Source: Naegleria gruberi (taxonomy: Eukaryota). From it: a stretch of DNA of 64,000 nucleotides. The position numbers and the translations under genes are program-made. Each line of letters starts with the position of its first letter. Within the stretch, counting starts at the first letter, position 1. Location of the stretch: NCBI GenBank assembly GCA_000004985.1, contig GG738856.1; one strand, 5' to 3'. Under the pieces are notes generated by a model. The model did not search any database and had not been told where the DNA came from. It worked only from the letters and a program-made list of their open reading frames with translations. Shown here one piece after another: positions 1-20,519 of this stretch.

Positions 1-354
1 AAGGTGAAGGCAATGTTACTTCTCAATAATTCTGGATCCTTCCCATATTATCTCTATGAAAACTTTGTAAATAGTGATACTGATATGGTTCTATATGAAA
101 AAATTGAACATTCCCTAAGAGAATTTTACATCAACTCAATGATGACAGTGTTTGACATCTTTCAACCACAAGGAGATGAATTCAATGTAGATATTAATGA
201 AACCTATGTAATAACGAAAGAACTTGCCATCAGTGCATTCAAAAAGAATCAAAGTGTTCTATTCTGTGTATTTGATAGTACTTGCCCAAGATATGAATTT
301 TCAATCATTACACAAGAAATACTCAATATGTTAACAAGAAAGAATCTTCTTTAA
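1..354 (+). CDS. 3' end of a protein-coding gene truncated by the window edge; function unknown
   Basis: Frame 1 is open from base 1 to the TAA at 352-354. The upstream GTG/ATG are probably internal. No recognisable motif. Confidence 0.5.
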   Translation, partial: KVKAMLLLNNSGSFPYYLYENFVNSDTDMVLYEKIEHSLREFYINSMMTVFDIFQPQGDEFNVDINETYVITKELAISAFKKNQSVLFCVFDSTCPRYEFSIITQEILNMLTRKNLL

Positions 355-387
355 AAACCAAATAGTTATTTATTATTTTTAATACAT

Positions 388-2556: not shown

Positions 2557-2933
2557 CTTCGCGCACGGGTTTTCAAAATATTTTTTTTTGTACAATTAAA
2601 AATTTATTTATTTTTTAAAAAGTAATATTGAAAGTTTTCAGAGTAGCCTATTCTGAATGATGGCCTTGAAGGAAGAAGGTTTGTTGTTATCAATTATCAT
2701 CATTACTTTAAAAACTGCTCAAAATCATTTAATTTCAAGAGTATTTGCAATGTATTATTATCGATAATCAAATAGAGAGTGATGATAAAATTGAAATTCA
2801 TTTGATGATGATTTAAAACTATTAAAAGAATTCATTTTGATCATCAAAATAATTCTAAAATTTGTTCATGATTTTAAACGTACGATCTTCTTTATTGACA
2901 ATACGTTAACGTGTCAAATAGACAACAACGGAT

Positions 2934-3308
2934 TTACTTTTGCTCCTTTTGTTTCTTTCTCTCTTCTTGTTCCTCTTCTTGTTTTTGAATAATAGCATCA
3001 AAACCAGCAGTCTTCTTCAAATAAATTTGGATCTTAGCCTTTTGGAAGGATTGTTCGTTTTTACTAGACACTGGAACAGTAGAAGTTTGGATCTTTGAGA
3101 TAGTAGCGAGCTTTTGGTTCTTCAAGATTTCAGCACATGAAACAACAGTATTGATGGCACTACCTAAACCACTAAGTTCAATCTCTTCGTTATTCTTCAA
3201 GAATTTCTTGGACAAATAAACGTAGAAGGAGAGAGATTGTTTGGTAGCAGAAACTTGAATCTTGTTGTCATCTTGCTTGCCTTGTGGTACGTTGCTAGAA
3301 GTGCTCAT
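2934..3308 (-). CDS. Alba-domain DNA/RNA-binding protein
   Basis: 124-aa ORF. NKIQVSATKQSLSFYVYLSKKFL...IELSGLGSAINTVVSCAEILK matches the Alba fold signature (G-x-G-x-AI...V..AEILK). K/E-rich tail. Confidence 0.75.
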   Translation of the reverse strand: MSTSSNVPQGKQDDNKIQVSATKQSLSFYVYLSKKFLKNNEEIELSGLGSAINTVVSCAEILKNQKLATISKIQTSTVPVSSKNEQSFQKAKIQIYLKKTAGFDAIIQKQEEEQEERKKQKEQK

Positions 3309-3739
3309 TTCCTTTAATTATGATATGCTCGGTACTAGAAATAATGATGATGATGTTGATAGAGTATTATCAGACGTTGTTGATTGCCTGCACTGTTAAT
3401 GTCTACTTAGATGAACGATCGTTTTTTTTTGTGTGTAAAGACAGCAAGCCTAGCTTCTTGTTAGCAGCTTACAAAATCAATCTCGTTAGAAGGAAGCCTC
3501 ATTTTTGCCCAAGCTGAGTCTCAGGTGTATTATGAAGAGGTTGTTTTTAGACTTACTTTAGCACACGTCTCGCTTGCAATTCCGAAGTTGTCAAATCTAA
3601 AAAAAGACTTGAAGTAATGAGAAGATTAATGTGAATTCCCAATATTTGTGTTAATATTCTGGTTAAATATATTAATTTTCTGTCAAGTTAATAAGTTAAT
3701 GGTTCATCCATTATGATAGTGAATGAAAATTAAAGAAAA

Positions 3740-5355
3740 TCATGGTTTACTAATGAAAGGAATATTTGCAAATCCTAATTGAGTACTCATTCTTTCAATA
3801 ACTTTACAAATATGTTCATAATCTTCTTCATTGGATTCTATAGTATTTGAAATTTTATATTCCACAAGTTCAGTAATATACGGTATCAATAATAATCCAA
3901 TTCCAAAATAAATAATATCACACGATCTATTTTCCACTTTTTCAACTATTATAAATGATTGAATTGATAAATATATCGAGTATACTTACTTGAAATTCTT
4001 GTTTCGGTAAAGAATATATAACTTGGTTGAGATAGAATGAATAGATTAATATATCTTCTGAAACATTTATCAATAGCTCTGATAAATAGTTTCTCCTTAT
4101 GAAATTTCACACTTTTATATCTATTCCACATCTTTTTCATCAAGTTAAAGTACATTTCAGAATATTGTATGTATGGATCTTCCAATAGAGTAGCTGTTTT
4201 TGTTACATTCTCATTGAAGAGATGTTCCATTTCTTCTCTTGTTGGATAGATTGATAAATCTACATGACATGAAGTATGCTTGTTTTTCAATTTCTTGTAA
4301 ATGAAATCGATTGATTTTTGAACTCGTTTTTGAAAATATAATCTTATGGAATATGGTGTATTGAGAATGTTTCTTCCTTGATACCATGGATTATTTTCTT
4401 GATTATATAAATAGAATACTCTTGTGAGGAATGGACGAACAATACTTGTTCTAAATAAATGACTCACAAACAGTTTTTCAAATTCATTCAATAATTTAGG
4501 GTAATCTTTTGGAAGATACAGATCAGTTCCATAATTGGTGGTCAAATAAGGATATGCAGCATTATAATTATAAACATAACATCCTACTTGTTTAGTATTT
4601 TCATTAATTTTCACAAATGGATCAAAATTGATTTGTTCAGTTCTATATCGTTCATTGACCAATTCTACATTATAGGAATAAGAGGAAAATTTGTAATTTT
4701 CATCTTCCGTTGGTTTTTTACAAGTATCGAATCCAATATCCAAAAAGGAAGTAAGAGGATTATTACTATTAAACAATATCGAATAAATATACGAGTTTCT
4801 AATATTAGTAGTATCTACATCTTCTGGTTTGTCTTTAATATATCTCAATAGACGATGTACATGTGTAGATTTAATCAATCTATAAAAGAATTGAAAGAAA
4901 ATATAAAAATCCGAAACATTTTTCACTCCAAAACACTTTCCATAATTAATATCATAAAAAGCATGATTAAAATAGACACTAATCATCAATGCACAAATAT
5001 CATTTCTTGATGTTAAAAGTGCTCTTCTCACACATTTATCAACCTCCTCAAATTGATCATCAACTTGATTTAATTTCTCTCTCATTAATTTCTCTGTTGT
5101 TTGTTGAAATAATTCTTCATTTTCCCTACTCCAATATTCACCTCTTCTCCAATTTTCAATCTTTTCCAAGGCTCCGAATGGTAATTCTTGTTGAATCTTT
5201 CTCCTCCAAAAGTGATCGGATTGAAATATTAATTTTCTTATTTTTCTATTTAATTTGGACCAACAATTGATCACCTCCCGAAGAGTACAATATTCAGCAA
5301 TGAAGAAACAAAAAAAATTATCATCCTGCAGACATAAATTAATAAATGGTTGCAT
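3740..5355 (-). CDS. Hypothetical protein with an F-box-like N-terminus; two exons (5355..3990, 3945..3740)
   Basis: ATG at 5355 follows an A-run. The apparent stop at 3949 lies inside a 44-nt GTAAGT...TAG intron. Splicing joins it in frame (phase 1) to ORF 3740..3937, which has no ATG of its own. N-terminal FFIAEYCTLREVINCWSKLNRKIRKLI is F-box-like. Confidence 0.6.
3946..3989 (-). other. Intron (44 nt)
   Basis: Minus-strand GTAAGTATAC...TTTATAATAG. Frame is restored across the junction (tca a|tt gaa). Confidence 0.7.
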
Positions 5356-5458
5356 TTTTTTTGTAAAGAATTCAAATTATTATTTATTATTGTTGAATAC
5401 TTGTTCTATAATGATTAGTATTAATACTTGTTCTATATAATGATATAATATGAGTTTT

Positions 5459-7851
5459 TTATTCTTTCAATAACTTTTTAATCTTTTTGTAAAGATATTT
5501 AGCAGGTAAATCATTTGGATTATGTTCCATAAAATCTTTCATAATATTCTTGGCAACTTCTAATTGAGTTTCTTGTAAATAATATGAAAATGCCTTATTG
5601 TAATCAACCCATCGATTCTTTCTTTCCTTATCTTTCAATTCATACATCCATTCATCTGTTAAAGTATCTTGTAATTCACCAATTTCGAATAGATTAATTT
5701 TCTGACCTTTTTGCTTTGAAATGAGTGAACAACTAGTTTCTAATAAAAATTGTTTTCTTCCAACAAATCGAGAGGAGAATTGTTCAGATTGTGAATGAAT
5801 AATTTCTGAAATTATGAATGAAATGTTAAATTTCATTGCATGTTTCATCATTCGTTGTAAATTTTGTGATAAACTTGACATGATTGTGAAAACTTTTGAT
5901 TCTCTAGTTCCGTAATTACCACATTTGGAAGTTTGGCTATGAACTGCAATTCTAAATGAGAAATTTTGAATTAAATCTGAATTTTGTTCAAATATTCTAT
6001 CATTCTTCCATTTCTTTGATAATTGTTGTAATCTATCATATAATTTAAAAGAGAATAATAATGATTTCTGACAATGTTGTTTGACTTCTGACACACTATT
6101 CAATGATATTACAATGGATTGATTTTCAAAACTACCCAAATATGCTCCAGACTTTGAACTTGTTTGTTGTAAAATTTCAAATAATTCACTCATCAATCTA
6201 ATAACTTCATTGTTATCTAAAATTGAAAACCAATCTTCAATTCCATCCAAATAAATTAAACAAGCACTAATATCCTTACTTTCCATTCCAATTTTAAACA
6301 TTGATGATTTGGAATCTGAGACTGATTTTCTTAATGAGTTTTTCAAATCAACACTTGAAAACATTCCATATTTGGATTTGGCTGCAGAATTTGTTGATTT
6401 TCTATAAGTGGATTCTGAAACAGCTTCTTGTTCTACTGCTGTATTATCACCTGTGTGTTCTAGTTGACTCAATAAATGGGATGGAATAAAAGCTCTATAT
6501 TGTCTAATTTTGGTAACCATTTGTGAAAAACCTTGTTGTAATTGAGAAATTTCTGTAAATCTACTTGGAACAATTACCAAATCCAATTCCATTCTTGAAA
6601 GACTATCAAATAATTCAATTAAATTCCAAAATGGTTTTGAAATTCTATAAGAGGAATAAATTCCCAAAAATGTTCCACCCAAAATTATCATTATACCACA
6701 AACAATGCCAACAATGATGGCAATGACCATATTTCCTATAAATGTCCATCTTGGAATGGTTACTGCAAATATCCAATCCAGCCCTGTTTGTGTGCAATAT
6801 CTGTAAACACTAATTTTGTAGAACGTATTCGAAACATCACCGAATGAATTGCAAGGTAACTGAAAATTTGGATAACTTTGATTAACCCAATGATATAAAT
6901 TTCTACTGTTATCATCCATTTGATCAACTGTAGTACTAATATTGAATGAATCAGGATAGCTCGCTAAATTATTGTAAAAACTTTACAAAAACAAATTACA
7001 ATCAACTTACTTGCAACTACAATTTGTGAACTAGTTTCAATAATCAATCCAAATGAACCACTATTCTCTCCCTGAGTAACATTCTTCAAGAAGAAAGTCA
7101 AATCAGAAACTGAAATTGCCATTTTCAAATACCAATCATAACCTTTAGCTCTTTGTGAATTTTCCTTCGAGTTGACTAAACCAACAAATCTCATTGGTAA
7201 ACCATTTAATTCATATAAATGAGTAAAGAATGGTTGACCAGGTTTCTTATAAATCATATTAGCAATAGCTGAATCAGAAGTTGGTGGTAAAGTTGCTAAA
7301 TAAATTGGACATGCTGGGAATATGACACATAATTTAACTGTAATTCCACTAATTGGTGAGATGAAAACTTTGATGAGTGGTTCATTAATGACATATCCAA
7401 TGGCATTGCTTTCATAATTGTAAACTGTCAATTCTTTCATTATGGATTTGTGAAAAGTAGTTTCGGATAAAGTAAACGAAGCTATTGAGGAATCTGCAGT
7501 GTTGATATCTGAAACATTGGTGAATGAATTCATGATTTGATATTTGGCAGTTTGAGAGGCAATCACGAATTGATTAAAAGTTTGATCAACGTATGAAATT
7601 AATTTATCCTGTTTTAAGGAAACTATTGAATCTGACATTTCTTGTAATGAAATACTAAACGAAAGTATCCAAATAATACTTTGAATAAATACACTGCATG
7701 TTACTGCTATTATAATAATGGAGAGAATGCAAAATTTAATGGACACTAATTTTCTATTCGAATCTAATTCATTCATTGAACTTTCAGACGAATCTTCATC
7801 TATTGTTTTATCTCCTTTTGATAGAGTGGTAATGGGTTGAATTCTTGCCAT
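5459..7851 (-). CDS. Receptor-type cyclase-homology protein: TM, extracellular sensor-like region, TM, HAMP-like linker, degenerate class III cyclase domain, TPR-like tail; two exons (7851..7011, 6963..5459)
   Basis: Hydrophobic segments FCILSIIIIAVTCSVFIQSIIWIL and MVIAIIVGIVCGIMIILGGTFLGIY. The CHD-like block CLIYLDGIEDWFS...GAYLGSFENQ...FRIAVHSQTSKCGNYG...FTIMSSLSQNLQRM keeps the first metal Asp and the N/R pair but lacks the GD and WGD motifs. Confidence 0.65.
6964..7010 (-). other. Intron (47 nt)
   Basis: GTAAGTTGATTG...AATAATTTAG. Joins ORFs 6964..7851 and 5459..6919 in phase 1 (GCA A|CG AGC). Confidence 0.8.
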
Positions 7852-8915: not shown

Positions 8916-11900
8916 ATGTATAAAGTTAAAACCACCACTGATCCAATAACCATTACAAATAATAGTTTGATAATAGCAGAGTCAACTGAAATAAAAGAGG
9001 GAAGTGTAACAGGTGTTGATAATTCATCTCAAATACTTTCGTCTGCTTCAAGTTCTTCATTATCAGCTCTGACTGGAAAGAGTTTAGTTTCGTCTTTACT
9101 TTCTAATATTTATTCTATCATTATTACATTTCGTCCAAAAGAAAGTTTGAATAATTCAACTTCTAAAATTGTTTGGGCGATAATTTTTCATATTTATTTA
9201 ATTTATAATTCAATTGTTGTTTCGTCATTTCCAATACCTTATTCGAGACAAGACGAATCTAAATTATGGGGTTATATTCCAGCATGGATTTGGAGAGTTT
9301 TATTCTTTCCAATGAATTTTGGATGTGAATTTTATCCATATGAAGCAATTGTAACATTATCAATACTATTTCTAGTTTTGGAAATTGCAACTATTTTTGG
9401 ATTTTATTGGTGTAGATGGGCTTCTAAAAAAGGAGGTAAATTATATGAAAAAGGTTTGTTTAATGGGTATTAAAATTTAAATAATTTTTAAAATAATTTT
9501 TCAATAGTTAAACAAATCATTCAAGCAATTGTTATCTTTTATAGAATTTTTACCATTTTTATAATTTACATTCATAGTTTATTACTTTCTCCTAATATTT
9601 CAGATATGACTTCCTATTTTTATCCATCTGTTTCATTTACTAATACTCCACATATTGTATTTGCTTGTGTTGGTGTGATTGGTATTATACTAACTTTAGT
9701 AATTACCATTTTTGGAATTTATTTAACAATTGAAACAATTCCACCAACTTCATACAAAACATTCTTTTCACTTGCTTTAATTTATCCATTCTGTTCATTA
9801 ATTGTCACTAATCAAATAAGTGTCATTGCAAATATTATTTGTAGTGAAAAATTCTCCTTCATTTCCTCAATTATTAAGATTATTCTAAATATGGTAGTAT
9901 TCTGTTTAATGTTTAGAACATTTCCATTTTTTAGAAAATGGGAAAATTGTTTCTTCTTGGGAATTGTTGGTTCTAAAATTTTGGCGCCAATTGTTCCCTT
10001 AGTTTTACATTTTGTTAAGGGAAATGACATTATTGGCGGATCATTGACAGGTGTCACATTTATTGCAGCCTTAATTGGTTTCGTATTAGCAAGTCTATTT
10101 TCCTATATTTATTCCAGTTTACATTTGAGACATGTTAGAAAATTATTGGATTACAAATCAGAAACAAGTAATACTTTACAATATTTGGAACATTCAAAAG
10201 ATGTACAAAATTCAATTTCACTCTTTCTTCGATTTTCATTAACTCAAACAAGAAATTTGACAAATTTAGAAGGAAGTGATTTTGATTTTGCAAAATATTT
10301 TGTTTTACAAAATGGAAAAAACATGTCATCTGCTGAAATGTTAATTACCTGTTCAATGTTTATTGCATTTGGTCAATTGGAGGGATATGATAAAAGTCAA
10401 GCATGTGCACTTGGTTTAGCATGTTTACAAAAAGCAGCAAAGAATTCACCCAATCAAATTCAAATATTTCACATCATGCTAAGAATGGAAGAATTGGAAC
10501 ATTTAGCCTTTCATGGAAATAATTTGGAAGTTTTAAGAAGATTGGAAACTTTAGAAAAAAAGGTAAAAATTTTAGGAAGAGCTCACAAAACATTTTTTAA
10601 AGAATTATTGAATGAAAAGCCAAAAATTACAAAATTGGAAAATATCAATCGTACATGTTGTGTACTTTACAATGAATGTGATAAGATTTATGAGAATTTA
10701 TTGAATATGAGTAGAAATAATAAGGCACTTTTGAAATCTTATGCTTCCTATTTGGAAAAATATAAATGGGAATTCCAATTAGCTCAGGAATTTTATGAGG
10801 AAGCTCAAGAGGCTGAAGAAGATAAGAAAACTGCACAAATTATATTGAAATCTAGACGAAAGTCAATGAAAGGTGAAATTCCACAACCAATTCCAGAATC
10901 AGCAAGTAGAAGATTCAGTATCACCAATACTTCATATATGAATGATGAAAATTGGGATTCGGTTAGTTGTGCAGCAGCTGAAGAGAATGAAGATAGAAAG
11001 GATAATATCATTAGAAGTGCTATTAATACTCCTATGAATACTTTGATTTATTCATTATCTTTCTTATTGATTAGTTTAGTTTCAATTATTGCTTTGGCTA
11101 TCATTGCACCAATGGCATTGAGTTATTCTGCAACCATTGATATTAGAATGTCAATGCAAGAGAAAGTATGCTTAATGTCAGGTGTTCCTTACAAGATGCT
11201 TTCACAAATCAAAGCCCTCCAATCAGAACATGCCTTGAGAGGTTTCATTTCTCCTCAAATGAAAAATTCAACCTATACTCAAACTAATCTCATGTTAGAT
11301 TTAACAGAAGAAGTAATAAGTGCAGGAAGTAATGGTAAACTAATTCCAGAAGTAGTCCAAGCCTATTTAAATAGTGAATATATTGTAAGCATTCCAATTA
11401 AGAATTATTCACTTGAAAATACTTCAATTATTCCTGAATATTCACAAACTAATACTTCACTATCTTTCTATATGGGTACTATTCTAGCTCAGGGTAGAAA
11501 TGTTCTGTTACAATTTTCAGATTTGGAAACTTTGACAACTCATTTGGATAACAATTATCCATTTTTATTTTTCTATTACAATAGAATGGTCATGACAAAT
11601 GCATTTAACAAATTTTGTACAACATTTGTGAATGCTAGTGTTGATTCATTGGATCAGAATTTCAATTCTTTATTAATTGCTTCTTGTTCAGTTATGGTAG
11701 TTTATCTATTTTTGGCAATTTCTTACTTGTTAGTAATGCGTATGCATACTAAGAGAATTACTATGGAAATTAAGGGCGTATTCAAAAAGATTCCAAAAGA
11801 TGAAATTGGAAAAATTTATCATAATTTTGATAAGAAATTGGACGATACCATGAATTCATTGAATTCATCCATATTGAAACCTAATCGTTTAATTATTTTA

Positions 11901-13862
11901 TCAGGTTGTGTTACCATTCTAATAGTTTGTATGGGTATTATTTTGATTCTCATTGAGTATAAACTAAATTCAGATAGAGCTTCACTTTCAATGAATAATC
12001 TCAGTATAATTAATAGTGTATTATATAGAGTTTCAAGTGTTAATTTCAGAGTTAATGAAATGATTCAAAGATCAAAATATAGTCAATTGACTACTTTTAA
12101 TCAATTGAGAGATTCAAGTGTAACGGATATTCAAGCTATTCAAAAATATTGGTATTCCATAATTTTGGGAAATGATAAATCTGGTTATCAATCAGCAGTG
12201 GTTGGAAAATATTCAGATATTGATGCTCAATTGAGTAATACATGTAATGATACTATTGAAATGAATTTTGCAAACACTACTAATGATAACTTATGTTTTG
12301 GATTGAATGATTTCATTACTGAATTCATTTCTAGAGCTACTGAATTGAATGAAGAAGCTTTTAAACTATCTGATTCGACAAGTGACTTGACAAGAAGATA
12401 TATTGATAGACTTTTCTATCTTTCTCAAGTATTGACTCAACAATTATTAGGATTTGTATCTAAATTTGTTGCTCATGAAAAAACTGCTCAAACTTACATT
12501 ACAGCAACTTCAATTTCTGTTACAATTATTGTAATCATTGTAATGGGAGTATTGTGTTTCAATTCTTTACTTAGTTTTTGGAAGGAACGATTCTGCTTGA
12601 GAATGCTATTGAATTATCTTAATATGGAAGTGATTGAAAACACTTTCCTATTGAAGGAATATGTCATGTCCAATTCTGTTTCATTTTCAAATACTACAAC
12701 AAAAATTATGGGAAAGCTCAATAAGATTCATTCAGAGGATAGCTCAACATGTGGTGATGAATCCATTCTAATGGTCAAAACAGTACTCAATGGAGGTGTC
12801 GATGCAAGTATTCTTTGTAATAGAGAAGGAAGTATTACAATATTTAATAATGCCGCTGAGGAAATGTTTGGTTATGCAAGAGCTGATGTTTTAGGTGATG
12901 CAATTCAAACTCTATTCACAGAAGAATATTCATCTCGATTGACCAAATTAATGAGTTCAGAATCAACATGTAAAGGTGATACCTTCGAAGCTATTGGATT
13001 ACGCAAGAACAAGTCAACCTTCAACTCAAAAGTCAGTGTTTCAGTCACAACCTACGATAAGAAACCCATGTTAATTGCCTTTATTAGAGATGTAACTCCT
13101 GAAAAGAAACTAAATTTGTTAATTTGTGAAGAAAAAAAGAAGAGTGAAGATTTATTATTGAACATTCTGCCACAAGCAATGGCTTCACGATTGAAGAATG
13201 GTGAGACGAATCTGTACGAAAAATTCAATGATATTAGTGTATTTTTTAGTGATATGGTTGGTTTTACATCGATGAGTTCTGGAATGCAACCAAGTGAGCT
13301 AGTTCAAATGCTCAACTCAATTGTGCAGGGTTATGACAAGTTGACAGAAGTTCATGGAATTGACAAGATTAAAACCATTGGTGATGCTTATTTTTGTGTT
13401 GGTGGACTTCAGGCAAGCAAAACTTCTGATCATCCAGAAAAGATGTTGGCATTTTCAATTGACATTATGTCATTTTTAAGAAGAACTAATGCTTCCACTA
13501 ACAAACCAGTTAATATTAGAGCAGGAATTCACACAGGTGAAGCAGTAGCTGGCGTAATTGGATTTAAAAAGTTTGCCTATGATTTGTGGGGAGATACTAT
13601 TAACACAGCTTCAAGAATGGAGTCAACCGGAGTTCCAGGAAGAATTCAAATTTCCAGAACAACCTATGAAAGAGTTTACGATTTGGGTTTTGAATTTGAA
13701 GAGAGAGAACAGGAAGTGAAAGGAAAAGGAAAAATGAAATGTTACTTGTTATCGAGTAAACATCATGAAAATCCAATGAATTTTCAAGATGATGATGTGA
13801 ATATTAGAACATTTCAGAGTACAGAGTTTTTGAGTTTGAAAGAACATCACGATTGTAAATAA
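8916..13862 (+). CDS. Polytopic membrane adenylate cyclase with a PAS domain and a catalytically complete class III cyclase domain; two exons
   Basis: ORFs 8916..9473 and 9606..13862 share a frame and are joined by a 72-nt (or 54-nt) intron. Many hydrophobic helices. PAS-like NREGSITIFNNAAEEMFGYARADVLG. CHD motifs FFSDMVGFT, KIKTIGDAYF, AYDLWGDTINTASRMES. The K and D specificity residues are of adenylate type. Confidence 0.85.
9436..9507 (+). other. Intron (72 nt; alternative donor at 9454 gives 54 nt)
   Basis: GTAAAT (or GTTTGT) ...TTTTTCAATAG. Both donors are phase 1 and give G|TT. The sequence downstream of 9508 is open in frame to 9606. Confidence 0.65.
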
Positions 13863-13893: not shown

Positions 13894-14286
13894 TTAGAAA
13901 CATTCAAAATTTAAAGAATACAAATTCCAAGCAGATCTAGCACCATTGACAATAACATAAATTTGATCTTTCATTTGGTCTAATCCATTGTAAACATAAG
14001 TAATTCCATTTTCAACACTTGTAGCTCTGTAATCAAATTCGGAAAAACTTGGAATTGAATTCTTTTTCACAGCGACATTGACAGCACTTCCAGAACTAAC
14101 ATTCAAAATGAATTTAACTTGAGAACATTTCAAATCAGAGATGGAAGCTTGATAATATTTTGGATTATTTTGAACATAATCTGAAATCCAATTTCCTTTC
14201 CAGTGGTTGACTTGTTGAGAGTTGACCATGAGAGTAAAGCTCATTAGAATAAAAAGGAGCAATAATACGAAACTGAATCTTGACAT
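13894..14286 (-). CDS. Small secreted protein; possible PPC-like beta-sandwich
   Basis: 130 aa. N-terminal signal-like MSRFSFVLLLLFILMSFTLMVNS. A-run before the ATG. Confidence 0.55.
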   Translation of the reverse strand: MSRFSFVLLLLFILMSFTLMVNSQQVNHWKGNWISDYVQNNPKYYQASISDLKCSQVKFILNVSSGSAVNVAVKKNSIPSFSEFDYRATSVENGITYVYNGLDQMKDQIYVIVNGARSAWNLYSLNFECF

Positions 14287-14512: not shown

Positions 14513-15445
14513 TTAATAATAGTAATCATCATCAGAACCATAATAAGGTGATTCAATCCTATCATGAGCAAATGTAGTCATGTAATAGAATTCATCACTG
14601 TCATAATAAGTGTTCATTGATGGTTTCCTAATGAGATAAGAACACACCAAACGGAAAGCATCATCACAAATATTAGAAAGTGGATGATCTTTAAGAATAG
14701 CATTGGAGCATTCTGATTTTCTACCATTTACTCGAATCAAGTAAGCAGGTTTGACGCACTCCCATGCCAATTTTTCTCTTCTCATTCTTGAATATTTCAA
14801 TAATTCATCTTTAACTTTCTCATTATCTTTCACTCTATTTGAAAGTCGAATATAATCAGCTGCGCTTAAACAAGTACACTTGCTGTGAAGTGCTTTGATT
14901 ATTTCAAGATTTGGATTTGTAGTGCATTGATTGAATAGATCATTGTAATCTATATCCTGAAATTTGATAGTTATCAAAATATTGAAAGCTTGAACATTGC
15001 CATAAATAACAGAATAGTAAAGTGCTCTTTTCCTATCATCTTCTCTCTCCACCCGTTCAAGTAACCATTGCATGATCTCACAATTTCCACTCTTTACAGA
15101 TTTTGTGAGCGGATCTTCCTTGCCACTATCAACAATGAACAATAAATCCTTATTCTTACACTTGCTGTAGAGAAACTTGACAGCATCAAAGTTTCCACTC
15201 TCACATGCAGCAAGGAATGGTGAAGTATTTCTATTATCTTTGGTTAATAATTGTGAACCTGCTGAGAATAAGCATTGAATAATGTAAAGACTCGTGTTTT
15301 TGAAACGACATGCATGAATGAGAGGTGTTGCTCCATTTGAAGTTTTCATACTCATTAACTTTCTATTGGTTGATAGAGAAAGCACTTCAGAATACTGATT
15401 CTTTTCAATACTATTAATTAAACTAGTGAATTGATCTGCTGACAT
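14513..15445 (-). CDS. Ankyrin-repeat protein
   Basis: Repeats such as NGATPLIHACRFKNTSLYIIQCLFSAGSQL, NTSPFLAACESGNFDAVKFLY and DPLTKSVKSGNCEIMQWLL. Confidence 0.75.
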   Translation of the reverse strand: MSADQFTSLINSIEKNQYSEVLSLSTNRKLMSMKTSNGATPLIHACRFKNTSLYIIQCLFSAGSQLLTKDNRNTSPFLAACESGNFDAVKFLYSKCKNKDLLFIVDSGKEDPLTKSVKSGNCEIMQWLLERVEREDDRKRALYYSVIYGNVQAFNILITIKFQDIDYNDLFNQCTTNPNLEIIKALHSKCTCLSAADYIRLSNRVKDNEKVKDELLKYSRMRREKLAWECVKPAYLIRVNGRKSECSNAILKDHPLSNICDDAFRLVCSYLIRKPSMNTYYDSDEFYYMTTFAHDRIESPYYGSDDDYYY

Positions 15446-15586: not shown

Positions 15587-18001
15587 TTATTGTAAATCCT
15601 TCTCTTGTTCAGAGTGGAGGGCACGAATGAAATCTTCTTTCAATATTTGTGAAACATCACTAATTAGAAAATTTTCTTTCGTCCTTAGTGATACTCGTGG
15701 AGCAATTATTGAGACTCGAGTGAGAAGAAATAAATTCAAACGTTCAATAACTTGCTCGACAGTGTCATTCTGTGATATGTCAATTAAAACAGAAACACGA
15801 GAACCTTCCAATTTGATTTTGATTGTATGAATTTGAATTTTCTCTGTGGAAACCTTGACTGGTGTTTGATGCTGCATAGGTGGTGAATCGTTATAATATA
15901 TCAAAGTCATCTCTAGAGGAGAAAAGTTGTCAGGATAGAGAGGTCTTAACTCAATAGGAAATTCAGGAGTTTTCATTTGGTTATTAAAAACTTGTCTAAT
16001 TCTGAAATATTCTTCATTGGCTTCACTTGCATATTTGTTCTGATTACATTTTAGAAAGTAAGAAATTCGCAGTTCGTGCGCAGGTTCAAAATTTGGTTCA
16101 CTTTGCAATACTCTATCAATGTAACCAAGTACCTTTTCAGTGTGTTTCAACTTTGCATGAATGGAAGCTATGAATATTAAAATTGTAGAATTATTGGAAT
16201 AGTTTTTCAATAATTGCTCAGCATACGAAAGACCATTCTCATATTCATTGAAAATAACTGATAATTGAGAGGCAATCATACTCAAAACATCTGATTCCTC
16301 AAAATGGTCCAGCATTTGCTTGAAAATTTTCTTGGCTTTTTCAATCTCTCCAATTTCAGCATAGTACTGAACTAAATAAACATAGATTACCAAGCAATTG
16401 GGTTCCAATTCTCTTGCTTTTAGAAAATCTGGGAATGCTTTAAGCTTTTCTTCTTTTGTTTTACCAACTTGATAAATAATTATTCCTCTTTTCAAGTAAT
16501 AATGAGCTAAATCATCTAAACTGTTCCCATATTTTTCCAATATTTTAGTGTATTCAGCAATAAGGATGAATGTTGAGCCCATTTGCTCCAAAATACCCAA
16601 TTTGGCATTAATGACAGGAATGGAGAAATGTGATTTCAAGGAATTATCCAAACATTGTAGAGCTTGCTTAGTGTTACCCTTGTAGAGATGTAAGAATCCC
16701 TTCAATTGCTCCAACACATGACCACTGTTCGGATCTTGGTGTGTATTGAATTTTCTTGAGAGAAATTCCAAAGACTCAAGCAGTGTTAATGCCTTGGAGA
16801 TGTTTGGTAACTTTCCTCCATAAACTCTCTCCCAAACATGTATATCATCTCTTGATAAAAACATGGCCAAAAGCAAGCCAACACAGTATTTGATTCTAAT
16901 TTCAACAGCATCATCAATAGATAATTTCATATAATATTTGTCAAGTATTTCTATTGAATCTTCAATACTATTGGCATTCAAATGAGAAAGTATTCTATTC
17001 ATTTCTAAAACTCCTGTAAATTCTCTATCACCTATTATTTGGAGATTGTTGCATATGATTAATCTAAGATTATTAATGGTTAATATTTCCATTGCATTCA
17101 ACGATGATAATCTCTCCTTCTTATCATATGTTAGAAAGGATAATAATAGTAGCTCAAAGAATTGGTCAACCTCCCTCGTAGAGATTTCATTGATGAATTT
17201 TGCTTGAAACACTTCACTCCATGTATTCTCAATGGTTGCTTGTGTATTTTCGAGTTTTAAATTTAGAAATCGAAAATCACATTCATCTACAATATCCTTA
17301 AAACTAATTGTTGACTCGGGGAAGAGTATTTTGAAAAGTACAACACCCATACTCCAGCAATCGACTTTGTAATCATAGAGTCTATGTTTAATTGATTCAG
17401 GTGGTAAATATTCAAATGTTCCCCTATGTGTTTTCTTGGTGTTTTCAGTTTGTAAGGTTTCTCCAAAATCAGCCAATGCAATCTCAATAAATGTTTCATT
17501 TTCTTCATCAAATGATTTGACAAGAATGTTTGAAAGTTTGATATCACAATGAACAAGATTATGTTTGTGTGAAATATTGACAGCAATACATAATTGTGTC
17601 ATGATTTGACCAATTAGAAAATCAGTCAATCTCTTTCCTCTTGATGTGAAATATCTTTCAATAAATGTTTCCAAATCTCCATACTTGTAAAATGGCATTA
17701 CAATCCCAATATTGGAATGATGATTAATGTATTCCAAACTCTCTACCAAATATTCACATACAATACTCTTTCTCAAATTAAATATCTTCAATTCCTTTTC
17801 AATAATGAATTCTCTTTCCTCTTCTTCTAATAAATTAATAATTTTCAATGCAATTTCATGGTTTGAACAACGATCAAAGCATCGATATACAACTCCGTAA
17901 CCTCCTTCTCCAATAAACAGCGGATTCAAAAACCTGTCACAAAAAGAAGAAGGGAATGCATAAGGTTGACGTGACATTTTTTTGTAATGTGACACTGTCA
18001 T
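15587..18001 (-). CDS. Ser/Thr protein kinase with C-terminal TPR-like repeats (paralog A)
   Basis: GEGGYGVVY, IALKII, HCDIKLSNILV, ADFGE, YLPPES. TPR-like helical repeats in the C-terminal half. The likely true start is the second ATG at 17977, which has an A-run context and aligns with paralog B. Confidence 0.85.
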   Translation of the reverse strand: MTVSHYKKMSRQPYAFPSSFCDRFLNPLFIGEGGYGVVYRCFDRCSNHEIALKIINLLEEEEREFIIEKELKIFNLRKSIVCEYLVESLEYINHHSNIGIVMPFYKYGDLETFIERYFTSRGKRLTDFLIGQIMTQLCIAVNISHKHNLVHCDIKLSNILVKSFDEENETFIEIALADFGETLQTENTKKTHRGTFEYLPPESIKHRLYDYKVDCWSMGVVLFKILFPESTISFKDIVDECDFRFLNLKLENTQATIENTWSEVFQAKFINEISTREVDQFFELLLLSFLTYDKKERLSSLNAMEILTINNLRLIICNNLQIIGDREFTGVLEMNRILSHLNANSIEDSIEILDKYYMKLSIDDAVEIRIKYCVGLLLAMFLSRDDIHVWERVYGGKLPNISKALTLLESLEFLSRKFNTHQDPNSGHVLEQLKGFLHLYKGNTKQALQCLDNSLKSHFSIPVINAKLGILEQMGSTFILIAEYTKILEKYGNSLDDLAHYYLKRGIIIYQVGKTKEEKLKAFPDFLKARELEPNCLVIYVYLVQYYAEIGEIEKAKKIFKQMLDHFEESDVLSMIASQLSVIFNEYENGLSYAEQLLKNYSNNSTILIFIASIHAKLKHTEKVLGYIDRVLQSEPNFEPAHELRISYFLKCNQNKYASEANEEYFRIRQVFNNQMKTPEFPIELRPLYPDNFSPLEMTLIYYNDSPPMQHQTPVKVSTEKIQIHTIKIKLEGSRVSVLIDISQNDTVEQVIERLNLFLLTRVSIIAPRVSLRTKENFLISDVSQILKEDFIRALHSEQEKDLQ
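17456..17710 (-). repeat. Left arm of a 255-bp inverted near-identical tract (kinase core)
   Basis: The reverse complement matches 18321..18575 with about 5 mismatches by hand alignment. Confidence 0.85.
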
Positions 18002-18032: not shown

Positions 18033-20519
18033 ATGATCAGTCAAACTCAACTTCCCTCATGTTTTGGCAGTCGTTTTTCCAATCCTACACCAGTTGGAAA
18101 AGGAGCATATGGCACCACCTACTCATGTATTGATACACAAAATGATGATCAACAAATAATTGCTTTAAAAGTGATGCAACCAAGTGAAGGGACTGGTGAT
18201 ATTGCACTTGTAGAGAGAGAAGAAGAAATTTTCACAGCCATGAAGAATGTTCAGTGTGAATATATTGCCAAGAGTATGGAATTTCTAAATTATTTCGAAA
18301 GTGATGGTAGTGGTGGTTACATTGGAATTGTAATGCCATTTTACAAGTTTGGAGATTTGGAAACATTTATTGAAAGATATTTCACATCAAGAGGAAAGAG
18401 ATTGACTGATTTTCTAATTGGTCAAATCATGACACAATTATGTATTGCTGTCAATTTATCACACAAACATAATCTTGTTCATTGTGATATCAAACTTTCA
18501 AACATTCTTGTCAAATCATTTGATGAAGAAAATGAAACATTTATTGAGATTGCATTGGCTGACTTTGGAGAAACCTTTCGAACTGATCACACAACCAATA
18601 CAGATAAAAAGGGAACAGATGACTACTTACCACCAGAGGCCTTTGATGGCAAGTACGGATTCAAGATTGATTGCTGTAGTATGGGTGTTGTCCTTTTCAA
18701 ATTGCTTTGTCCACCAACTGATGTATCTATTAGAAACTATTTGGGAGAATGTCAAACTAAATACAAACACAAACAGCGTAACATTTTCTTTAGCCATTAT
18801 TGGTCAAAGAAGTTGGCGAAATACATGTCTGGTATTGAATATCTCAAAGATCAACCATTACTACTTTCAATGGTGAATGGATTTCTAACTTACGACAAGG
18901 AAAGTAGACTCACCATATTGAATGCTCTCGATCTATGTTGCATGATTATTATGATGCACATACATGGACAGAATAATAGTGTAAACTTAGACAATTTGGA
19001 GAATCCTTCACCTGTTTTGATACTATATGATCAATTATCATTGATTTCAGATTTCAATAATGGTTCAATGGAATTGTTATCCAAATATTACAATGAAACG
19101 AAGCAAGGAAATAGTTTAGGTATTGCATACATGGTAGGATTAATCTTTTGTAGCAGTCTATTGAAAAGAGATTTCAGAATTTGGGAATTTCAATTTAATT
19201 TACAAACACCCATTACCGATACAGCAACATTGGACAAAATGATACAAGATCTTGATCAACTATCACTGAAAATTAAGACCAATGAGCCATACTTGGGCTT
19301 TATATTTGAACAATTACATGCCATTTCACTAATGAACAAGAAAATGCCTGAAAAATCTTTACAAAGATTGGAAAACTCTACAAATTCATTCTTCACATTG
19401 GCATGCCAAAAAAAAAAGTTACTACTTGTAGAATTATTGAATGGAATGACTTATTCGTTGGTAGATGAATATTCCAAGCTAATCAAACTTTATGGTGACA
19501 AGAGTATGCTCTCTGGATACTTTTATTACAAAAGGGGTGTAATGTTATTCACCCTTTCTAATGATCATCAAAATGGTATAGCTGACTTGATACATGCAAG
19601 GAATTTATCACCAAATAGTTTGGGATTATATGCAATTATGGTAAACTGCTTTTTAACTATTGGCAGTATTGAAAATGCAAAACAAGTGTTTGAGCAAATG
19701 TTGTTATTGTCTGAGCACTTTGAGATTAATAGGTTAAACTTTATTGCAATGTTTTTATCCAATTGTTTAGGTTATTTGGATAAAGCATTGGAATATGGTG
19801 AAAAACTTACTAGTCAAGAACTGTATAGCAAGGACCCTGTATTACTTCTCTTTTTATCCAGAATCTGTAGTAATAGAGGCGATAGCTCAATGGAATTGGG
19901 TTATATAGAAACGGCATTGGATATAGATCCACATTGTTATCAAGCTCACCAAATGAAAATCCTATTTTATAGAGCAGCTTTGGATTTCACAGCAGAAAAA
20001 GAAGCTTTGCTCAAGTATACAGCTCTGAAAAGGCAAAACCTTTTGCATACCTCTGAATTTCCCATTGAACTTTTACCACTATTACCAGATGGCTCACCTC
20101 TTCCAATATTATTACTAAATGAACCTGAAAAGGATGTTACAAGAATTAAGGAAATTACTTTTAAGGAAGCTGAGAAGACTGTTCAACAATTTGAAACCAT
20201 TCAACCATCACTAATGCAAGAACCTACCACAAATGATTCAATTCTTTCACCAGAAATCATCATGCAAATCAAAGTGAAATTCAAAGGGAAAAACAATGCT
20301 GTTTTCATTGATATTTTGAAAACAGATACAGACATTCGTCAAGTATTAGATCGCTTGAATAAGATTGGAAACGAAAAGAGTACAGCATATGTTAATAGAG
20401 TGGCATTTTCAATAGTGAAAGACGATGATTGTATTTTAATTACATCAATTCATCAATTATCTAAATATGATGAAGTAGTGGCTCTCACAAGTGATGAAGA
20501 AAAAGAGTTTTGGGCGTAA
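18033..20519 (+). CDS. Ser/Thr protein kinase with C-terminal TPR-like repeats (paralog B)
   Basis: GKGAYGTTY, IALKVM, HCDIKLSNILV, ADFGE, YLPPEA. Same architecture as paralog A. Confidence 0.85.
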   Translation: MISQTQLPSCFGSRFSNPTPVGKGAYGTTYSCIDTQNDDQQIIALKVMQPSEGTGDIALVEREEEIFTAMKNVQCEYIAKSMEFLNYFESDGSGGYIGIVMPFYKFGDLETFIERYFTSRGKRLTDFLIGQIMTQLCIAVNLSHKHNLVHCDIKLSNILVKSFDEENETFIEIALADFGETFRTDHTTNTDKKGTDDYLPPEAFDGKYGFKIDCCSMGVVLFKLLCPPTDVSIRNYLGECQTKYKHKQRNIFFSHYWSKKLAKYMSGIEYLKDQPLLLSMVNGFLTYDKESRLTILNALDLCCMIIMMHIHGQNNSVNLDNLENPSPVLILYDQLSLISDFNNGSMELLSKYYNETKQGNSLGIAYMVGLIFCSSLLKRDFRIWEFQFNLQTPITDTATLDKMIQDLDQLSLKIKTNEPYLGFIFEQLHAISLMNKKMPEKSLQRLENSTNSFFTLACQKKKLLLVELLNGMTYSLVDEYSKLIKLYGDKSMLSGYFYYKRGVMLFTLSNDHQNGIADLIHARNLSPNSLGLYAIMVNCFLTIGSIENAKQVFEQMLLLSEHFEINRLNFIAMFLSNCLGYLDKALEYGEKLTSQELYSKDPVLLLFLSRICSNRGDSSMELGYIETALDIDPHCYQAHQMKILFYRAALDFTAEKEALLKYTALKRQNLLHTSEFPIELLPLLPDGSPLPILLLNEPEKDVTRIKEITFKEAEKTVQQFETIQPSLMQEPTTNDSILSPEIIMQIKVKFKGKNNAVFIDILKTDTDIRQVLDRLNKIGNEKSTAYVNRVAFSIVKDDDCILITSIHQLSKYDEVVALTSDEEKEFWA
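18321..18575 (+). repeat. Right arm of the 255-bp inverted near-identical tract
   Basis: Encodes IGIVMPFYKFGDLETFIERYFTSRGKRLTDFLIGQIMTQLCIAVNLSHKHNLVHCDIKLSNILVKSFDEENETFIEIALADFGET. Confidence 0.85.

What the first reader, a model, noticed from the sequence alone, without database searches (positions are those of the whole stretch)
8916..13862. About 1600-aa cyclase combining a polytopic N-terminal module, a second membrane/extracellular block, PAS and an adenylate-type CHD
The protein has two separate clusters of hydrophobic helices. An N-terminal block of about 10 helices spans the intron; a further TM, large loop, TM arrangement follows. A PAS-like domain sits directly before a CHD with Lys/Asp (ATP) specificity residues. 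The sensory input of the N-terminal polytopic module is not obvious from known families.
Basis: partly seen in the sequence, partly recalled or inferred. Interest (0 to 1): 0.4.

Follow-up and report, generated by a model that had tools for sequence, protein, structure and literature searches.

The report
TmcB-type receptor adenylate cyclase of Naegleria
This is one real 1630-residue Naegleria gruberi gene, split into two fragments in the public annotation, that joins a poorly understood "TmcB-type" membrane module and two bacterial-chemoreceptor-like outer helix bundles to a PAS domain and a complete adenylate cyclase; it is one of dozens of such putative cAMP-producing receptors in this group of amoebae.

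Summary
The finding is real, but its anatomy needed correcting. The window is Naegleria gruberi. The two ORFs form one gene: exon 1 is 8916-9453, a 54-nt intron is 9454-9507, and exon 2 is 9508-13862, giving 1630 aa. Public models split it into a 185-aa and a 1179-aa protein. A 44%-identical relative is a single uninterrupted ORF, and more than 30 full-length homologues align across the junction.

The architecture, in order:
- 8 TM helices plus a short helix in the first outer loop
- a cytosolic TPR domain (Pfam TPR_TmcB)
- two TM-ectodomain-TM units, not one
- PAS, a transducer helix, and a class III cyclase domain with all six catalytic residues of the ATP type (K1468/D1538)

The PAS lacks the FixL haem histidine and the LOV cysteine motif.

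Best reading: a homodimeric receptor adenylate cyclase, a new variant of a known kind. Interest is moderate.

The parts
8916..9453 (+). Exon 1 (aa 1-179 plus the first base of codon 180): cytosolic N-tail, TM1, short helix in outer loop 1, TM2
   Evidence: ORF list and sequence. The donor was chosen because homologues carry the 6 residues GKLYEK. The public 185-aa model NAEGRDRAFT_65008 is this ORF read through into the intron.
9454..9507 (+). Intron, 54 nt, GTTTGT...AATAG, phase 1
   Evidence: The joined frame is open. The junction peptide KKGGKLYEKVKQII matches RKGGKLFGRIKTFL of P0002, whose gene has no intron.
9508..13862 (+). Exon 2 (aa 180-1630 plus the stop codon)
   Evidence: The public model NAEGRDRAFT_78958 covers only aa 452-1630.
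9168..10100 (+). TmcB-type 8-TM module (aa 85-377; spans the intron). The invariant cytosolic motif P319-F-x-R-x-x-E-N326 is at 9924-9950.
   Evidence: Hydropathy. AF2 helices with pLDDT mostly above 85. Positive-inside pattern. Invariant P319 and N326. Homologous to aa 3-213 of the algal TmcB-family protein P0105 (E 4e-15). No Pfam hit, no PDB sequence hit up to E=10, no PDB Foldseek hit at E<=0.001.
10164..10853 (+). Cytosolic helical-repeat (TPR) domain, aa 399-628; the Pfam TPR_TmcB match is aa 523-620 (10536-10829)
   Evidence: 22 of 22 homologues; helices, high pLDDT.
11064..11723 (+). Sensor unit 1: TM9 (aa 699-717), ecto four-helix bundle with a beta hairpin (718-899), TM10 (900-918). 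Conserved C734/C883, R/K748, Q751, P809.
11724..11891 (+). Basic cytosolic loop, aa 919-974, with the conserved motif IPKDxxGKIYH (aa 941-951)
   Evidence: 12 K/R residues in 56. K943, G947 and H951 are conserved.
11892..12560 (+). Sensor unit 2: TM11 (aa 975-993), ecto four-helix bundle (994-1178), TM12 (1179-1197). Conserved E1030 and the Cys pair around 1092/1109.
   Evidence: Weak profile similarity to unit 1 (hhalign P 8.5e-6, probability 64%).
12561..12800 (+). Juxtamembrane linker, aa 1198-1277, with the conserved motif L-R1211-x-M-L-N-Y-x-P
12801..13097 (+). PAS domain, aa 1278-1376
   Evidence: Pfam PAS_9 53 bits. Closest solved relatives are FixL PAS domains (E 5e-8), but the proximal His position is Leu here.
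13098..13217 (+). Transducer helix, aa 1377-1416 (EEKKKSEDLLLNILPQAMASRLK)
   Evidence: Aligns to the helices that precede C1 and C2 of AC8 and AC9. 63% mean identity among paralogues.
13218..13754 (+). Class III cyclase homology domain, aa 1417-1595. Residues: D1428 and D1472 (metal), K1468 and D1538 (adenine), N1545 and R1549 (transition state), K1586.
   Evidence: Pfam Guanylate_cyc 188 bits. Residue-by-residue alignment to AC8/AC9 C1 and C2. Positions.

Best explanation
The locus encodes a receptor-type, homodimeric class III adenylate cyclase of Naegleria gruberi.

Shown:
- One gene with two exons, giving 1630 aa.
- The domain order is an 8-TM module and cytosolic TPR domain of the TmcB family; then two tandem units, each of TM, four-helix-bundle ectodomain and TM; then a juxtamembrane helix, PAS, transducer helix and a cyclase domain.
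- The single cyclase domain carries the metal, adenine-specifying and transition-state residues that mammalian enzymes divide between C1 and C2.

Inferred:
- The N-terminus and the whole C-terminal output lie in the cytosol, and the two helical bundles face outward. Support comes from basic cytosolic loops and from conserved Cys pairs that occur only in the predicted outer segments.
- The two bundles lie side by side like the two halves of a NIT domain, or like a chemoreceptor dimer built from one chain. They would bind an unidentified small extracellular ligand.
- Binding would displace TM12. The change would pass through the conserved LRxMLNYxP helix, the PAS domain and the transducer helix, and would re-orient two cyclase domains in a homodimer to turn cAMP synthesis up or down.
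- The TmcB core (8TM plus TPR) would serve as the membrane platform and partner-binding or regulatory part.
- Paralogues keep the output nearly constant and vary the ectodomains. The family would therefore be a repertoire of receptors with different ligands.
For: Gene model:
- (uninterrupted orthologue-like ORF).
- 111 relatives, 34 with E<1e-30, full-length ones aligning over aa ~30-1198.
- Naegleria gruberi, N. fowleri, N. lovaniensis, Willaertia and Acrasis.

Domains:
- TPR_TmcB in 22 of 22 members, PAS_9 in 19 and Guanylate_cyc in 17.

Catalytic residues:
-.

Topology:
- K/R-rich loops 2, 6 and 10 against K/R-poor loops 3, 5 and 7.
- conserved Cys pairs 734/883, about 1092/1109, and 208/223 in paralogues.

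Structure:
- Model A, aa 70-1265: pLDDT 85.2, pTM 0.65.
- Model B, aa 684-1222: pLDDT 86.3, pTM 0.80.
- NIT is two four-helix bundles with ligand-binding arginines at their interface, and NIT-cyclase fusions exist in animals (PMC7400543).

Regional conservation among 20 paralogues:
- CHD 64%, transducer helix 63%, PAS 37%, TPR 29%, 8TM 24%, ectodomains 20%.

Link of the TmcB family to cAMP signalling:
- Statement in PMC12750705 citing Muramoto et al. 2005.
Against: - No ligand, activity, localisation or dimer has been tested.
- The window protein has K748 and S1023 where most paralogues have Arg.
- Low ectodomain conservation could equally reflect relaxed constraint.
- The side-by-side packing of the bundles, and of TM9-12 against the 8TM module, rests on AlphaFold only. 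I could not inspect coordinates.
- N-x-S/T sequons are not enriched in the outer loops of this Asn-rich protein.
- D. discoideum TmcB itself could not be retrieved for direct comparison.
Confidence: 0.55

Rival explanations
1. The cytosolic PAS domain is the real sensor, responding to an intracellular metabolite, redox state or gas. The whole membrane part would be only an anchor, dimerisation or targeting device, for instance to the flagellar or plasma membrane.
For: PAS sits directly upstream of the transducer helix and cyclase domain. Its nearest solved relatives are the oxygen sensors FixL and DosP. One source names the public model 'FM179'; from my memory of the Naegleria genome paper, that label marks families associated with flagellar motility.
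Against: The FixL proximal histidine is Leu here, and no LOV NCRFLQ cysteine motif is present. About 1200 residues of conserved membrane and ecto architecture, with conserved outer Cys pairs, is much more than an anchor needs. PAS domains often act as transmitters between transmembrane sensors and outputs (established knowledge).
Confidence: 0.2
2. The 8-TM TmcB module is a transporter or channel. The protein would then be a transport-coupled cyclase, like the cyclases fused to P4-ATPase or K+-channel modules in alveolates.
For: Polytopic transport modules fused to cyclase domains are a recurrent theme. The profile search itself pulled up 2260-aa proteins carrying a P-type ATPase domain plus a cyclase domain (PF16212+PF00211). 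The module has invariant polar and proline residues: P319, N326, G119, G356.
Confidence: 0.1
3. The membrane part senses a physical membrane property, such as tension, osmolarity, lipid composition or voltage, rather than a soluble ligand.
For: There are twelve TM helices. Osmosensing adenylate cyclases are known in another amoeba (Dictyostelium ACG, cited in PMC9928731). No ligand pocket has been demonstrated.
Against: The two well-folded ectodomains carry conserved polar residues (R/K748, Q751, E1030), yet their sequences diversify among dozens of paralogues. That fits ligand diversity better than one physical stimulus.
Confidence: 0.1
4. The two ORFs are separate genes, as in the public annotation (a 185-aa membrane protein and an 1179-aa cyclase).
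For: GenBank and RefSeq carry them as NAEGRDRAFT_65008 and NAEGRDRAFT_78958.
Against: The 185-aa model ends by reading into the intron. Residues 180-451, covering six TM helices and the start of the TPR domain, are in no public model, although the frame is open and conserved. Full-length homologues and an intron-less relative span the junction.
Confidence: 0.02

Closest known systems
TmcB / TmcC ('tiny macrocysts') family of Dictyostelium discoideum and other protists (Pfam PF25474, TPR_TmcB)
   Same: The cytosolic TPR domain matches the Pfam model above its cut-off. The 8TM module in front of it is homologous to that of a bona fide TPR_TmcB protein from a green alga (P0105: TPR_TmcB E 2e-40, N-module E 4e-15). 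Dictyostelium tmcB is described as a regulator of the cAMP pathway (PMC12750705 citing Muramoto 2005).
   Different: Here the module is covalently fused to PAS and an adenylate cyclase. The algal relative carries PAS domains but no cyclase domain, and its C-terminal membrane region shows no significant similarity to the two sensor units. Dictyostelium TmcB itself was not compared.
NIT-domain receptors: bacterial NasR (PDB 4AKK) and NIT receptors, and the NIT-guanylate cyclases of placozoans and many bilaterians
   Different: There is no Pfam NIT match, and identity is 9%. The topology differs: NIT is one continuous domain between two TMs, whereas here each bundle has its own TM pair with a cytosolic loop between. 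The window protein has K and S at the two Arg positions. The output is an ATP-type cyclase preceded by PAS.
Four-helix-bundle sensor domains of bacterial chemoreceptors and histidine kinases (Tar, Tsr, PcaY, PilJ, McpN, TorS, NarQ, Adeh_2942)
   Different: Those sensors act as homodimers of one bundle per chain, whereas here two bundles sit in one chain. There is no HAMP domain. Unit 1 has a beta-hairpin insertion. The bundles have conserved disulfide-type Cys pairs. No sequence-family match exists, and designed bundles score equally, so homology is unproven.
Membrane-bound class IIIa adenylate cyclases: mammalian AC8, AC9 and AC5, and the mycobacterial homodimeric adenylate cyclases with solved structures
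   Same: The catalytic domain and the preceding transducer helix align at E 1e-66 to 1e-47, and all functional residues are present. It is a homodimer-type enzyme with one domain per chain, like the mycobacterial enzymes.
   Different: The membrane part is unrelated: 12 TM helices of the TmcB type with two folded ectodomains, instead of 6 or 2x6 TM anchors. A TPR and a PAS domain are inserted.
Other modular protist cyclases (Dictyostelium ACG, trypanosome receptor cyclases, alveolate P4-ATPase or channel-cyclase fusions)
   Same: The principle is the same: a lineage-specific sensor or membrane module is fused to a class III cyclase domain and expanded into a gene family (otherwise from established knowledge).
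   Different: The sensor modules differ. None of these carries a TmcB core or TM-flanked double four-helix bundles.

Membership tests
Class III nucleotidyl cyclase (Pfam PF00211), ATP-specific, homodimer type | Profile match above the curated cut-off | tested here: met
   188.4 bits against a cut-off of 21.9, covering profile positions 4-182 of 183.
Class III nucleotidyl cyclase (Pfam PF00211), ATP-specific, homodimer type | Two metal-binding Asp, the substrate-specifying Lys and Asp, and the transition-state Asn and Arg, all in the one domain | tested here: met
   D1428 and D1472 align to the C1 Asp residues. K1468, D1538, N1545, R1549 and K1586 align to the C2 residues of AC8 and AC9.
Class III nucleotidyl cyclase (Pfam PF00211), ATP-specific, homodimer type | cAMP synthesis and dimer formation | not testable with these tools
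   Needs an enzyme assay and an oligomer analysis.
PAS domain with haem (FixL/DosP type) or flavin (LOV type) | PAS fold profile match | tested here: met
   PAS_9 53.3 bits against 27; PAS 29.4 against 22.6.
PAS domain with haem (FixL/DosP type) or flavin (LOV type) | Proximal His on the F-alpha helix (FixL), or the Cys of the NCRFLQ motif (LOV) | tested here: not met
   In the alignment to FixL the His position is Leu, and the sequence has no NCRFLQ-like motif.
TmcB family (Pfam PF25474 TPR_TmcB) | TPR_TmcB profile match above the cut-off | tested here: met
   43.5-45.9 bits against 27; present in 22 of 22 homologues.
TmcB family (Pfam PF25474 TPR_TmcB) | A polytopic N-terminal module shared with family members outside Heterolobosea | tested here: met
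   The family HMM of aa 75-385 hits aa 3-213 of the Edaphochlamys protein P0105 at E 4e-15. P0105 has TPR_TmcB at E 2e-40.
TmcB family (Pfam PF25474 TPR_TmcB) | Collinearity with D. discoideum TmcB over the whole membrane architecture | not tested
   The sequence could not be retrieved. The word-index searches failed and the AlphaFold database libraries were unavailable.
NIT domain (Pfam PF08376) | Two adjacent four-helix bundles | tested here: met
NIT domain (Pfam PF08376) | Sequence-profile membership | tested here: not met
   No NIT hit for the two loops at E<=10, nor in 22 family members at E<=5.
NIT domain (Pfam PF08376) | Two conserved Arg at the bundle interface | tested here: inconclusive
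   Paralogues have R748 (41 of 44) and R1023 (23 of 37), but the window protein has K and S. Their position at the interface could not be checked.
4HB_MCP / TarH chemoreceptor sensor domains | A TM-flanked antiparallel four-helix bundle | tested here: met
4HB_MCP / TarH chemoreceptor sensor domains | Sequence-profile membership | tested here: not met

The most novel reading that the evidence does not exclude
The TM-flanked double four-helix bundle would be a eukaryotic, single-chain counterpart (possibly a very distant relative) of bacterial NIT/NarX-type small-ligand sensors. The heterolobosean TmcB-PAS-cyclases would then be the main chemoreceptor repertoire of these amoebae, each paralogue turning a different extracellular solute directly into cAMP. 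By the gene-fusion argument, the cyclase-less TmcB proteins of Dictyostelium, green algae and other protists would be receptors that act on cAMP signalling through a separate cyclase.
Probability: 0.2. Interest if true: 0.65.

Novelty: new variant of a known kind. Interest (0 to 1): 0.4.

Why it matters
1. It corrects the public gene model. Two adjacent N. gruberi entries and an unannotated 272-residue stretch are one receptor cyclase.

2. It defines the full architecture of a large heterolobosean family. The exhaustive search found at least 34 clusters at 50% identity with E<1e-30, including proteins of the pathogen N. fowleri. Databases label these proteins only as 'cyclase domain-containing' or 'hypothetical'.

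3. The fusion links the almost unstudied TmcB membrane module physically to cAMP synthesis. This fits the one genetic report that Dictyostelium tmcB regulates the cAMP pathway, and it gives a testable idea of what TmcB proteins do.

4. If the outer bundles bind ligands, these proteins would be a direct route from environmental chemicals to cAMP in amoeboflagellates. Their receptors for food, encystment or differentiation cues are largely unknown.

Tried and rejected
- First splice model (donor 9435|GTAAAT, 1624 aa): rejected in favour of donor 9453|GTTTGT, because homologues have the six extra residues.
- Paralogues inside the window: none found (tblastn).
- The search for homologous proteins with the protein, with a full-length family alignment, and with a TPR-region alignment: 1 hit, 3 family hits and 0 hits respectively. 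The word index fails on this family, so D. discoideum TmcB could not be fetched.
- Foldseek of the 1196-residue model against PDB: nothing at E<=0.001.
- AFDB libraries were not available.
- Pfam on the isolated 8TM module and on both loops at E<=10: no meaningful hit.
- PDB profile search with the 8TM module: none.
- Haem or flavin PAS: rejected.
- N-glycosylation sequons as topology evidence: dropped, because they are as frequent in cytosolic segments.
- Internal duplication of the two sensor units: only weakly supported (hhalign probability 40-64%, partly driven by the TM segments), so I mention it but do not rely on it.
- Literature searches for TmcB, 'tiny macrocyst', tmcA/tmcC and FM179 gave only one indirect statement.
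- The Naegleria genome paper is not held.
Full report
**Source and gene model**

The window is AT-rich eukaryotic DNA, about 30% GC. The long ORF is 100% identical to Naegleria gruberi NAEGRDRAFT_78958, which one source names 'FM179'.

Two + strand ORFs, 8916-9473 and 9606-13862, are separated by a short A+T-rich stretch. Two in-frame phase-1 donors are possible, 9435|GTAAAT and 9453|GTTTGT, both joining to one acceptor, AATAG|9508. Homologues carry six residues exactly where the upstream donor would delete them. The window's KKGGKLYEKVKQII lines up with RKGGKLFGRIKTFL of P0002. I therefore take:
- exon 1: 8916-9453
- intron: 9454-9507 (54 nt)
- exon 2: 9508-13862
- protein: 1630 aa

The public annotation has two adjacent models. 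EFC46971 (185 aa) is the first ORF read into the intron. EFC46972 (1179 aa) starts at residue 452. Residues 180-451 are in no public model.

Three results show this is one gene:
- An exhaustive HMMER search with aa 1-1198 found 111 relatives, 34 with E<1e-30. Many are 1400-1740 aa long and align in one stretch from about aa 30 to 1198.
- The closest relative (P0002, 44% identity, from a metagenome contig) is encoded by one uninterrupted 4821-nt ORF.
- Named relatives come from N. gruberi, N. fowleri, N. lovaniensis, Willaertia magna and Acrasis kona, which are all Heterolobosea.

**Architecture**

Pfam finds three domains (renumbered):
- TPR_TmcB at aa 523-620
- PAS_9 at aa 1278-1376
- Guanylate_cyc at aa 1417-1595

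Among 22 homologues, TPR_TmcB is present in 22, PAS_9 in 19 and the cyclase domain in 17. The members lacking a domain are truncated models.

Hydropathy gives twelve TM segments, eight in aa 85-377 and four more at 699-717, 900-918, 975-993 and 1179-1197.

The loops predicted to be cytosolic are rich in Lys and Arg:
- loop 2: 6 of 19 residues
- loop 6: 3 of 12
- the TM10-TM11 loop: 12 of 56

The predicted outer loops are poor in Lys and Arg, with 0-1 each. Conserved cysteine pairs occur only in predicted outer segments: C734/C883 at 43 of 44 and 38 of 39, about 1092/C1109, and a pair in outer loop 3 of most paralogues. This supports an N-in, C-in topology with aa 718-899 and 994-1178 outside. 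N-x-S/T sequons are uninformative in this Asn-rich protein.

**Catalytic and PAS domains**

The cyclase domain aligns to both C1 and C2 of mammalian AC8 and AC9 (E down to 1e-66). It contains, in a single chain:
- the C1-type metal aspartates D1428 and D1472
- the C2-type residues K1468, D1538, N1545, R1549 and K1586

The helix before it (EEKKKSEDLLLNILPQAMASRLK) aligns to the helices that precede C1 and C2. This is the residue set of an active, ATP-specific enzyme that must form a homodimer. The inference comes from established class III cyclase structure; activity was not measured.

The nearest solved relatives of the PAS domain are the FixL and DosP haem sensors (E 5e-8). The proximal histidine position is Leu, and there is no LOV-type cysteine motif.

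**Structure of the unknown parts**

An AlphaFold2 model of aa 70-1265, built on 45 family sequences, is confident (pLDDT 85.2, pTM 0.65) and almost entirely helical. The low-confidence segments are the acidic/basic linker at aa 632-669, one loop in ectodomain 2 (aa 1095-1105) and the C-terminal end of the construct (aa 1255-1265). A second model, of aa 684-1222, is better still (pLDDT 86.3, pTM 0.80).

In both models the TM helices run on into long outer helices. Each loop forms a four-helix bundle, and unit 1 has an added beta hairpin.

Fold searches gave the following:
- Foldseek against PDB found nothing significant for the large model.
- Periplasmic four-helix-bundle sensors follow: kinase Adeh_2942 (14.1), PcaY (13.4), PilJ (13.2), MCP2201 (12.7), HK9 (12.5), TorS (12.0), LytS (11.9), Tsr (11.4), Tar (11.2) and NarQ (10.0).
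- The large model gives the same list, so these hits come from the ectodomains.

Two cautions apply. Designed bundles score as high as natural single bundles. No NIT, TarH or 4HB_MCP profile matches any of 22 members. The resemblance is therefore one of fold and layout, not demonstrated homology.

The NIT domain is described as two four-helix bundles with ligand-binding arginines at their interface. It occurs in front of cyclase domains in animals (PMC7400543). In this family an Arg sits on the first helix of each bundle, 31 and 30 residues from the membrane: R748 in 41 of 44 sequences and R1023 in 23 of 37. The window protein has K748 and S1023. I record this as a lead only.

The two units are the same length and order. 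They show only weak profile similarity (hhalign P 8.5e-6, probability 64%).

**The N-terminal module**

The N-terminal module gave no match in any library that I could search:
- no Pfam hit
- no PDB sequence hit up to E=10 with a family profile
- no PDB fold hit that can be attributed to it

It is not an orphan, though. A family HMM of aa 75-385 matches the N-terminus of an Edaphochlamys (green alga) protein at E 4e-15, and the TPR HMM matches the same protein at 2e-24. That protein has a strong TPR_TmcB match (2e-40) and PAS domains but no cyclase domain.

So the 8TM module plus the TPR domain is a conserved evolutionary unit, the TmcB core. [quoted passage not shown] 2005).

**How it most likely works**

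Among 20 full-length paralogues, mean pairwise identity by region is:

| Region | Mean identity |
|---|---|
| Cyclase domain | 64% |
| Transducer helix | 63% |
| PAS | 37% |
| TPR | 29% |
| 8TM module | 24% |
| Ectodomains | 20% |

A constant output combined with variable, well-folded, disulfide-stapled outer domains is the pattern of a receptor family.

I therefore read the protein as a homodimeric receptor adenylate cyclase. The two outer bundles would bind a small ligand. The signal would travel through TM12, the conserved LRxMLNYxP helix, PAS and the transducer helix to the catalytic dimer. The TmcB core would act as membrane platform and TPR docking site.

The gene model, domains, residues and predicted folds are shown. 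The topology, the dimer, the ligand and the signal path are inferred.

**Rivals**

| Rival | Confidence |
|---|---|
| PAS as the true sensor, with the membrane part as an anchor | 0.2 |
| A transport-coupled cyclase | 0.1 |
| A sensor of membrane physical state | 0.1 |
| Two separate genes | 0.02 |

**Novelty**

The sequence is public, and automatic annotation already lists TmcB-TPR, PAS and cyclase domains for relatives. Still, the gene is mis-modelled here. In the searchable library I found no paper describing this architecture or the nature of the two ectodomains.

It is a new variant of a known kind: protist receptor cyclases with lineage-specific sensor modules. Interest is moderate, at 0.4. 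The Naegleria cyclase expansion is well known. The TmcB-cyclase fusion and the NIT-like single-chain double bundle are the unexpected and testable parts.

Noticed in passing
window 8916-9473 and 9606-13862: The public N. gruberi annotation splits this gene into NAEGRDRAFT_65008 (185 aa) and NAEGRDRAFT_78958 / 'FM179' (1179 aa). Residues 180-451, which cover six TM helices and the start of the TPR domain, are left unannotated.
   Followed up: yes
window 3949-7851, minus strand (ORFs 6964-7851, 5459-6919, 3949-5355): Three consecutive long ORFs look like exons of one large gene. It has an N-terminal TM segment and no Pfam match at E<=0.1, so it may be another uncharacterised membrane protein next to the cyclase.
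   Followed up: partly
window 15587-18001 (-) and 18033-20519 (+): A divergently oriented pair of protein-kinase genes; the first also has TPR repeats. They are followed by an NHL-repeat plus BTB protein at 20586-22937 (+). An ankyrin-repeat protein (14513-15445, -) and a small protein with a signal-peptide-like N-terminus (13894-14286, -) lie just downstream of the cyclase.
   Followed up: partly
window 11211-11222 (aa 748-751) and 12036-12059 (aa 1023-1030): Paralogues conserve an Arg on the first helix of each ecto bundle, 31 and 30 residues from the membrane, together with Q751 and E1030. The window protein has K748 and S1023. This recalls the two interface arginines of NIT domains, but the geometry could not be checked.
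   Followed up: partly
locus L001 (ENA metagenome contig, 5240 bp), gene 253-5073: A 44%-identical relative of the window protein is encoded without the intron. The intron was therefore gained or lost within this lineage.
   Followed up: partly
protein P0105 (Edaphochlamys debaryana, 2625 aa): A green-algal TmcB-family protein shares the 8TM module and the TPR domain, then carries PAS domains and, near its C-terminus, further hydrophobic segments flanking long helical stretches, but no cyclase domain. This hints that the TmcB core with PAS is older than the cyclase fusion.
   Followed up: partly
tool behaviour: The word-indexed protein search missed nearly the whole family, including sequences that were rows of the query alignment. 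The exhaustive HMMER search found 111 relatives. 'No homologues' from the indexed search should not be trusted for such low-complexity, AT-rich proteomes.
   Followed up: yes
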